64,000 nucleotides of DNA from an uncultured virus (IMG/VR IMGVR_UViG_3300037067_009972) (taxonomy: Duplodnaviria > Heunggongvirae > Uroviricota > Caudoviricetes): the IMG/VR virus record IMGVR_UViG_3300037067_009972; one strand, given 5' to 3'. Below, piece by piece: positions 42,412 through 42,502 of this stretch. The position numbers were made by a program, and so were the translations under genes. Under the pieces are notes generated by a model, which made no database searches, was not told the DNA's origin, and saw only the letters and a program-made list of their open reading frames with translations. How positions within the stretch are numbered: position 1 is the first letter of the stretch; each line of letters begins with the position of its first letter.

Positions 42412-42502
42412 TCATCCGTAGCTCAATGGTGGTAGCACCTGGCCCAGAAAGATACAAAGAGTGTTAACCAGGGGGATGCACGTTCGAGTCGTGCCGGATG
42501 AG
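42412..42502 (+). tRNA. tRNA-Asn(GTT) with 18-nt insertion in the anticodon loop
   Basis: Perfect acceptor, T and anticodon stems (CCTGG/CCAGG) enclosing a 25-nt loop ending TGTTAA. Confidence 0.8.

What the first reader, a model, noticed from the sequence alone, without database searches (positions are those of the whole stretch)
42412..42502. tRNA-Asn with an 18-nt intron-like insertion 5' of the anticodon
Seen: all stems are intact, but the anticodon loop is 25 nt (CCCAGAAAGATACAAAGAGTGTTAA). Removing 18 nt at 32/33 or 33/34 restores CTGTTAA or CCGTTAA. The insert is too small to self-splice and has no clear BHB. The break position and the CC-A-rich start resemble the junction of the permuted tRNA (GGAGT-CCAAAAAA). 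Inference: both may be substrates of the same uncharacterised endonuclease/ligase. Bacterial tRNA introns are normally self-splicing (mostly group I).
Basis: partly seen in the sequence, partly recalled or inferred. Interest (0 to 1): 0.72.

Follow-up and report, generated by a model that had tools for sequence, protein, structure and literature searches.

The report
Phage tRNA-Asn with short loop insert
A large uncultured phage has 18 extra bases in the codon-reading loop of its asparagine tRNA gene; this is more likely damage linked to a selfish DNA-cutting gene next door than a new kind of spliced-out intron, but only RNA data can settle it.

Summary
The insert is real. ARAGORN calls tRNA-Asn(GTT) with 18 nt at 32/33, and a second assembly carries it (655/657 identical). 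Two syntenic phages have a plain Asn gene in this slot; one has exactly the arm left after removal. No splicing signal: 2 of 4 BHB pairs, versus perfect BHB in 79 of 90 inserted Asn genes collected. The complete relative has Rnl1/Pnkp but no splicing endonuclease or RtcB. The 'permuted tRNA' is more likely a YrlA-type Y RNA, weakening the shared-enzyme idea. Just downstream lies a truncated HNH gene whose family neighbours tRNA-Asn in 12 of 20 phage loci. Best reading (0.5): an unspliced, disabled gene scarred in an HNH homing event; in the second assembly a stem pair is broken. Against: it is the array's only Asn gene, and an unrelated phage's insert shares 9 of its last 10 bases. A BHB-less mini-intron stays possible (0.18). 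This scan noted HNH-split tRNA-Asn genes and swollen-loop relics on other DNA; no look-alike of this sequence.

The parts
42412..42443 (+). 5' part of tRNA-Asn (positions 1-32): acceptor strand, D arm, anticodon-stem strand CCTGG, C32
   Evidence: position 29 (42440) is A instead of T in L157, breaking a stem pair
42444..42461 (+). 18-nt insert between positions 32 and 33; no BHB; last 10 nt match 9/10 the end of the 30-nt insert in L027
   Evidence: no other copy with up to 3 mismatches in the window or the loci then held, except L157 (scanned with the 18-mer shifted by one base)
42462..42502 (+). 3' part of tRNA-Asn (T33, anticodon GTT at 42463-42465, T arm, acceptor strand, G73)
42532..42675 (+). 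Truncated HNH endonuclease gene (47 codons, no start, in-frame stop just upstream), of a family that usually lies in phage tRNA arrays and often next to tRNA-Asn
   Evidence: phrog_3106 E 4.6e-15; translation; 55% identical to the HNH overlapping the insert-bearing Asn gene of L067; neighbour count
42191..42403 (+). Small 70-aa ORF upstream; codon 56 is a stop in L157; no link to the insert shown
54083..54218 (+).
   Evidence: fold z -4.2; 77% identical copy in G001; YrlA model 1-114, 19.3 bits

Best explanation
A tRNA-Asn gene whose anticodon loop was split by a short insertion that is not removed from the RNA, so it cannot decode; the phage would use host tRNA-Asn. The likely cause is the tRNA-Asn-associated HNH homing endonuclease whose remnant lies 30 bp downstream: these nucleases move in cassettes that cut into and replace tRNA genes at the anticodon arm, and the 18 nt are either a repair or collapse scar at the cut or a change that removed the target site. 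Shown: the insert, the lack of splicing signals, the HNH remnant, the family's bias to tRNA-Asn, plain genes in relatives. Inferred: that the HNH cuts this arm, that it caused the insert, and that the RNA stays unspliced.
For: No BHB: best central helix 2 of 4, no second helix; 79 of 90 distinct inserted Asn genes collected have a perfect one. Host is bacterial by gene content (sigma-70 domain, deformylase, release factor), and no splicing endonuclease or RtcB in the complete 215-kb relative. It is the only credible interrupted gene among the window's tRNA genes, and both relatives are plain here, a poor case for dedicated machinery. HNH remnant adjoins the gene and takes the slot of a Y-RNA-like element in both relatives. 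Asn is the nearest tRNA up- or downstream of this HNH family in 12 of 20 named phage loci; in Bacillus phage Bastille the HNH sits between a whole Asn gene and an orphan Asn 3' half that begins at the anticodon arm. A second insert-bearing Asn gene (L067, 21 nt) is overlapped by a full-length HNH of the same family. One of only 2 differences in 657 bp of L157 breaks the anticodon stem. In L027 the insert-bearing gene follows an intact Asn gene.
Against: None of the 14 Asn genes in the 20 HNH loci has a loop insert, so an insert is not this family's usual mark; the family also lies beside Ile, Lys, Ala and others. Only 2 of 4 phage-type insert-bearing genes have this HNH nearby (none found in L027, L104). 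Of 28 anticodons shared by the two relatives, the window holds 27 intact (26 by ARAGORN; Glu-TTC by Rfam), which points to selection to keep each one, and this is the only Asn gene in the array. All main stems and conserved positions are intact in the window. The 9/10 match to the end of the L027 insert (background 3.5-7.7e-5 per site) is unexplained. The L157 change is one base and may be an error.
Confidence: 0.5

Rival explanations
1. A real, minimal intron without BHB: an unidentified phage or host nuclease cuts at 32/33 and after the insert, and phage Pnkp plus Rnl1 heal and seal the halves; at the DNA level the intron may also shield the gene from the neighbouring HNH.
For: Clean removal gives the arm of relative G002 exactly; only Asn gene in an array whose anticodon set is kept; Rnl1, an Rnl2-like ligase and Pnkp in G002, Rnl1 and a kinase-like protein within 4 kb of the L027 gene; 9/10 shared 3' end with L027; all four phage-type inserts end in GAN; same insert in two assemblies.
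Against: No endonuclease candidate; the ligases are in a relative with no interrupted tRNA and are explained by tRNA repair (own knowledge); 5' ends of the four inserts differ; the shared position is largely forced by my search patterns, which required TGTTAA intact; such inserts are rare (1 phage-type lineage without BHB among 24 viral loci); stem-breaking change in L157.
Confidence: 0.18
2. A chance insertion unrelated to the HNH (slippage, or capture of nearby A-rich DNA such as Y RNA sequence) that recently disabled a dispensable gene.
For: Relatives plain; L157 stem change; the insert's first bases equal the 8-mer after the D arm in the G001 Y-like RNA; other loop inserts found are plain duplications (L014) or pair with the loop itself (L104).
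Against: No source for the 18-mer found; HNH of an Asn-biased family adjoins 2 of 4 such genes; shared 3' end with L027.
Confidence: 0.17
3. An unspliced tRNA mimic kept for a job outside decoding (decoy for a host anticodon nuclease, or a partner of the phage Ro60/Y RNA system).
For: Body intact; the clade carries several tRNA-like RNAs and Ro60; the insert starts like the YrlA consensus at the same structural place.
Against: Absent from both relatives; the loop has no notable fold (z -0.16); no covariation data; L157 stem change.
Confidence: 0.15

Closest known systems
Lak megaphage tRNA 'introns' (Devoto et al. 2019, PMC6784885; bioRxiv 10.1101/356790)
   Same: Insert in the anticodon loop of a phage tRNA gene, no Rfam intron class, alleles with and without it, splicing not shown in the passages read, T4-type RNA ligase in the genome.
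   Different: Those seen in supplementary Table S6 are 79-114 nt, lie 3' of the anticodon in Tyr, Phe, Thr, Gly genes and hold a T-arm or whole tRNA-like piece; this one is 18 nt, 5' of the anticodon, in Asn, with no such piece.
Free-standing homing endonucleases of phage tRNA clusters (T4 SegB) and collaborative homing (PMC2988022, passages)
   Same: Nuclease gene inside a phage tRNA array; collaborative homing pairs a free-standing nuclease with an intron at its target site.
   Different: SegB is GIY-YIG and its listed target is intergenic; collaborative homing involves self-splicing introns; here the nuclease is a truncated HNH and nothing that could self-splice is present; cutting was not tested.
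Archaeal and eukaryal protein-spliced tRNA introns at non-canonical sites (BHB type)
   Same: Short insert 5' of the anticodon of tRNA-Asn, similar length (13-34 nt in my set).
   Different: No BHB, no endonuclease, bacterial host.
YrlA bacterial and phage Y RNAs (Rfam RF02553; Chen et al. 2014, PMC4201824)
   Same: Applies to the element at 54083-54218: T arm, closed acceptor stem, D arm on a long stem, near-match to GNCGAAN0-1G, YUAY.
   Different: Score far below the cut-off; no Ro60 gene in the window; the Asn gene itself is not permuted.

Membership tests
BHB-type protein-spliced tRNA intron | 4-bp central helix between two 3-nt bulges at the junctions | tested here: not met
   2 of 4 pairs, no second helix; 79 of 90 control genes meet it
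BHB-type protein-spliced tRNA intron | tRNA splicing endonuclease in host or virus | tested here: inconclusive
   PF01974 in 0 of 4 records, one of them the complete relative; none in 85 window proteins; host unknown but bacterial by gene content; the phage's own genome is not held
Eukaryal canonical 37/38 intron | Removal at 37/38 gives a normal loop with U33 | tested here: not met
   Gives CCCAGAA with C33
Group I or II self-splicing intron | Catalytic core of a few hundred bases | tested here: not met
   18 nt; no intron family in Rfam scans
Lak-type phage tRNA intron | Long insert 3' of the anticodon with hairpin and tRNA-like piece (my reading of Table S6) | tested here: not met
Any spliced tRNA intron | Joined exons found as RNA | not testable with these tools
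   No reads were laid on the locus
HNH-linked tRNA gene disruption | HNH gene of the tRNA-array family next to the gene | tested here: met
HNH-linked tRNA gene disruption | Replacement tRNA copy or orphan half beside the HNH | tested here: not met
   No second Asn gene or half in the window; present in L027 as an intact tandem copy
HNH-linked tRNA gene disruption | The nuclease cuts the plain anticodon arm and not the inserted one | not testable with these tools
   Needs a cleavage assay
YrlA Y RNA (element 54083-54218) | T arm, loop-closed acceptor stem, D arm in that order on an outer stem | tested here: met
YrlA Y RNA (element 54083-54218) | Rfam gathering score 69 bits | tested here: not met
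   19.3 bits, E 0.072
YrlA Y RNA (element 54083-54218) | 5' motif GNCGAAN0-1G | tested here: inconclusive
   GCCGTAG, one mismatch
YrlA Y RNA (element 54083-54218) | Ro60 gene within about 4 kb | tested here: not met
   None in the window; Ro60 is in relative G002, about 100 kb from the array

The most novel reading that the evidence does not exclude
The 18 nt are a minimal intron of a kind not found in the papers searched: no ribozyme and no BHB, marked by a shared 3' end, cut out by an unknown nuclease and sealed by phage Pnkp and Rnl1 in a bacterial cell, and kept because it splits the target site of a tRNA-Asn homing endonuclease.
Probability: 0.18. Interest if true: 0.85.

Novelty: new variant of a known kind. 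Interest (0 to 1): 0.38.

Why it matters
If disabled, it is a small, dated example of how selfish HNH genes erode phage tRNA arrays, and a caution that 'introns' called in phage tRNA genes need not be introns. If spliced, it would be protein-driven tRNA splicing in a bacterial cell without a ribozyme or BHB, and a 91-nt substrate would make the open question of the Lak phage tRNA introns easy to test.

Tried and rejected
Own genome: not held, so a second Asn gene or a nuclease outside the window cannot be excluded. Sequencing runs: no RNA holder listed; DNA holders with half or more of the words were 3 of 7 rows, one a possible source; no reads or contigs were laid, so expression, splicing and strain variation at the insert are open. 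Named phages: no record covers the gene with its insert or the L027 gene with its insert. Motif scans of viral contigs for a wider family: 3' motif found only the L027 lineage (2 loci each); 5' motif gave 3 chance matches, none a tRNA; Y-like element found only G001 plus 2 chance matches. Alternative registers giving CAT, CTT or CAG anticodons rejected for C33. Fold of the whole gene is unremarkable (z -1.45). Search for the insert's ends in the 20 HNH loci gave 5 scattered 10-mer matches, at background. L157, L104, L067, L123 are not held as whole records. Protein look-up gave no host name. Promoter scan: 11 sites against 10.0 expected; one 11/12 site at 40364-40392 upstream of the array. Literature searches that found no report of a short BHB-less phage tRNA intron or of an HNH/tRNA-Asn link: (listings only, except the papers named in the full report); most subscription papers are not in the library, and the bioRxiv supplements were not seen.

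Full report
Observation. The gene at 42412-42502 has intact acceptor, anticodon and T stems and a 25-nt loop. Rfam scores it 44 bits. ARAGORN finds it only with the intron option, as Asn(GTT) with 18 nt at 32/33. Only that register gives C32 and T33. It is the only Asn gene in the window. A metagenome contig, L157, is 655 of 657 bases identical and has the same insert; its two differences break anticodon-stem pair 29-41 and put a stop in the small upstream ORF.

Setting. The window is part of a large tailed phage of bacteria: baseplate proteins, sigma-70 domain, deformylase, release factor, two tRNA nucleotidyltransferases and about 29 tRNA genes. Two syntenic relatives were found at roughly 70-75% DNA identity: G001 (26 kb) and G002 (215 kb, rated complete); G004 duplicates G002. 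Both have a plain Asn gene in the same slot, and G002's anticodon arm equals the window's after removal at 32/33. Of 28 anticodons shared by G001 and G002, 27 are intact in the window, although same-anticodon genes are only 66% identical at the median. This argues that the set is under selection and is the main point against a dead gene.

Splicing signals and enzymes. Among 90 distinct Asn genes with an insert 5' of T33 that passed my stem filter, 79 have a perfect BHB; the window's has 2 of 4 central pairs and no second helix (L104 and L157 fell outside that filter). Where organisms are named these controls are mostly archaea; 12 of the 24 viral loci are a separate group followed by T runs. 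G002 has no RtcB and no tRNA splicing endonuclease but encodes Rnl1, an Rnl2-like ligase, Pnkp, RlaP and Ro60 (165 ORFs of 90 aa or more outside the window-syntenic part were scanned). Sealing is thus plausible in the clade; cutting has no candidate.

Other phage-type inserts. Three more lineages have a non-BHB insert at this place: L027 (30 nt, behind an intact Asn gene; L026 is 99.96% identical), L067 (21 nt, 3 of 4 central pairs) and L104 (22 nt). L067 and L104 look phage-like from their ORFs only. The shared position is largely forced by my patterns. The last 10 nt of the window's and L027's inserts match at 9 places, where background is 3.5-7.7e-5 per site; all four end in GAN. Scans for that motif found nothing further. 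I cannot explain the match.

The permuted element. The stretch 54083-54218 folds well (z -4.2), is conserved in G001 (77%) and aligns along the whole YrlA model at a low score. Chen et al. 2014 (PMC4201824; passages and section 6 read) describe this layout, a 5' motif it matches but for one base, and phage examples. G001 has a second such element just upstream and G002 encodes Ro60. I read it as Y-RNA-like, not as a splicing substrate. That fits capture of such sequence or chance as well as a shared enzyme.

The HNH link. Thirty bases downstream is a 47-codon HNH remnant with no start. In both relatives this slot holds a Y-RNA-like element instead. The remnant is 55% identical to a full-length HNH that overlaps the insert-bearing gene in L067. 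I fetched 20 loci from the top of two searches of named phages (239 and 229 records), picking by name to spread over groups; some are kin. Asn is the nearest tRNA on one side in 12 of 20; none of the 14 Asn genes there has a loop insert. In Bastille the HNH lies between a whole Asn gene and an orphan 3' half starting at the anticodon arm. No HNH of this family was found in L027 or L104, and in G001 it adjoins Lys. T4 SegB and collaborative homing are the published parallels (PMC2988022, passages). Earlier notes of this scan describe HNH cassettes splitting phage tRNA-Asn genes; they are unchecked AI notes and I count only my own neighbour test.

Known cases. Lak megaphage tRNA genes carry 'enigmatic introns' (PMC6784885: passages and part 4 of supplementary file 3; bioRxiv 10.1101/356790: passages). 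They are longer and lie 3' of the anticodon. The word 'intron' does not occur in the main text of PMC7162821. PMC10085705 gave nothing on phage permuted tRNAs (passages). Searches finding no short BHB-less phage tRNA intron.

Verdict. The feature is real and rare. Most likely it is an unspliced, disabled gene tied to HNH activity (0.5); a chance lesion (0.17) or an unspliced mimic (0.15) are possible; a true mini-intron keeps 0.18 because the gene is the array's only Asn, removal is exact, ligases exist in the clade and the 3' end recurs. No RNA evidence was obtained either way.

Noticed in passing
window 40880-41100 (+); G001 2198-2437; G002 109598-109825: RNase P RNA-like gene: two motifs that could form the P4 helix (consensus recalled, not from a call) are conserved in all three phages, yet Rfam gives no RNase P match even at E 10.
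   Followed up: partly
window 43501-44167: Release factor gene in two frames with CTTTGAC at 43609, the RF2-type +1 frameshift signal (recalled); same site in G001.
   Followed up: partly
L032 9446-9585 and L030 3877-4006: Y-RNA-like elements right after tRNA-Asn in both relatives, with a GGGTCG/TTACCC outer helix, a T arm and a closed acceptor hairpin; ARAGORN calls the G002 one Leu(CAA).
   Followed up: partly
L003, L005, L007, L009, L012, L013, L015, L016, L017, L019, L021, L022: 12 viral loci with tRNA-Asn carrying a 19-23 nt insert at 32/33 with a perfect central helix and T-run ends; possibly viruses of eukaryotes (inferred) with a non-canonical BHB intron.
   Followed up: partly
G002 (L051 8847-11324, L049 625-1860, L050 1768-3555): The relative encodes a major vault protein-like protein, a PARP with WGR domain and Ro60/TROVE, three parts known from eukaryotic vaults (recalled).
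   Followed up: no
L059 3171-3485 (-); L051 5024-6037: A mitochondrial carrier domain hit (E 9e-14) and a reverse transcriptase in the same phage genome.
   Followed up: no
window 44783-45019: A second short HNH reading frame, of another family, just before tRNA-Pro(CGG).
   Followed up: no
window 41108-41180, 54225-54296, 60437-60521: tRNA genes missed by default ARAGORN: Glu(TTC), a weak Trp(CCA) and Ser(TGA).
   Followed up: partly
L014, L063, L107: tRNA-Asn gene with a 25-nt insert that repeats part of the anticodon arm.
   Followed up: no
L301 8902-10319 (Lak-A1): The same HNH family lies directly after tRNA-Asn and about 800 bp before the interrupted tRNA-Thr gene in Lak-A1.
   Followed up: no
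window 28240-29307 and 63501-64000: Two tRNA nucleotidyltransferase-like genes; most tRNA genes here lack an encoded CCA.
   Followed up: no
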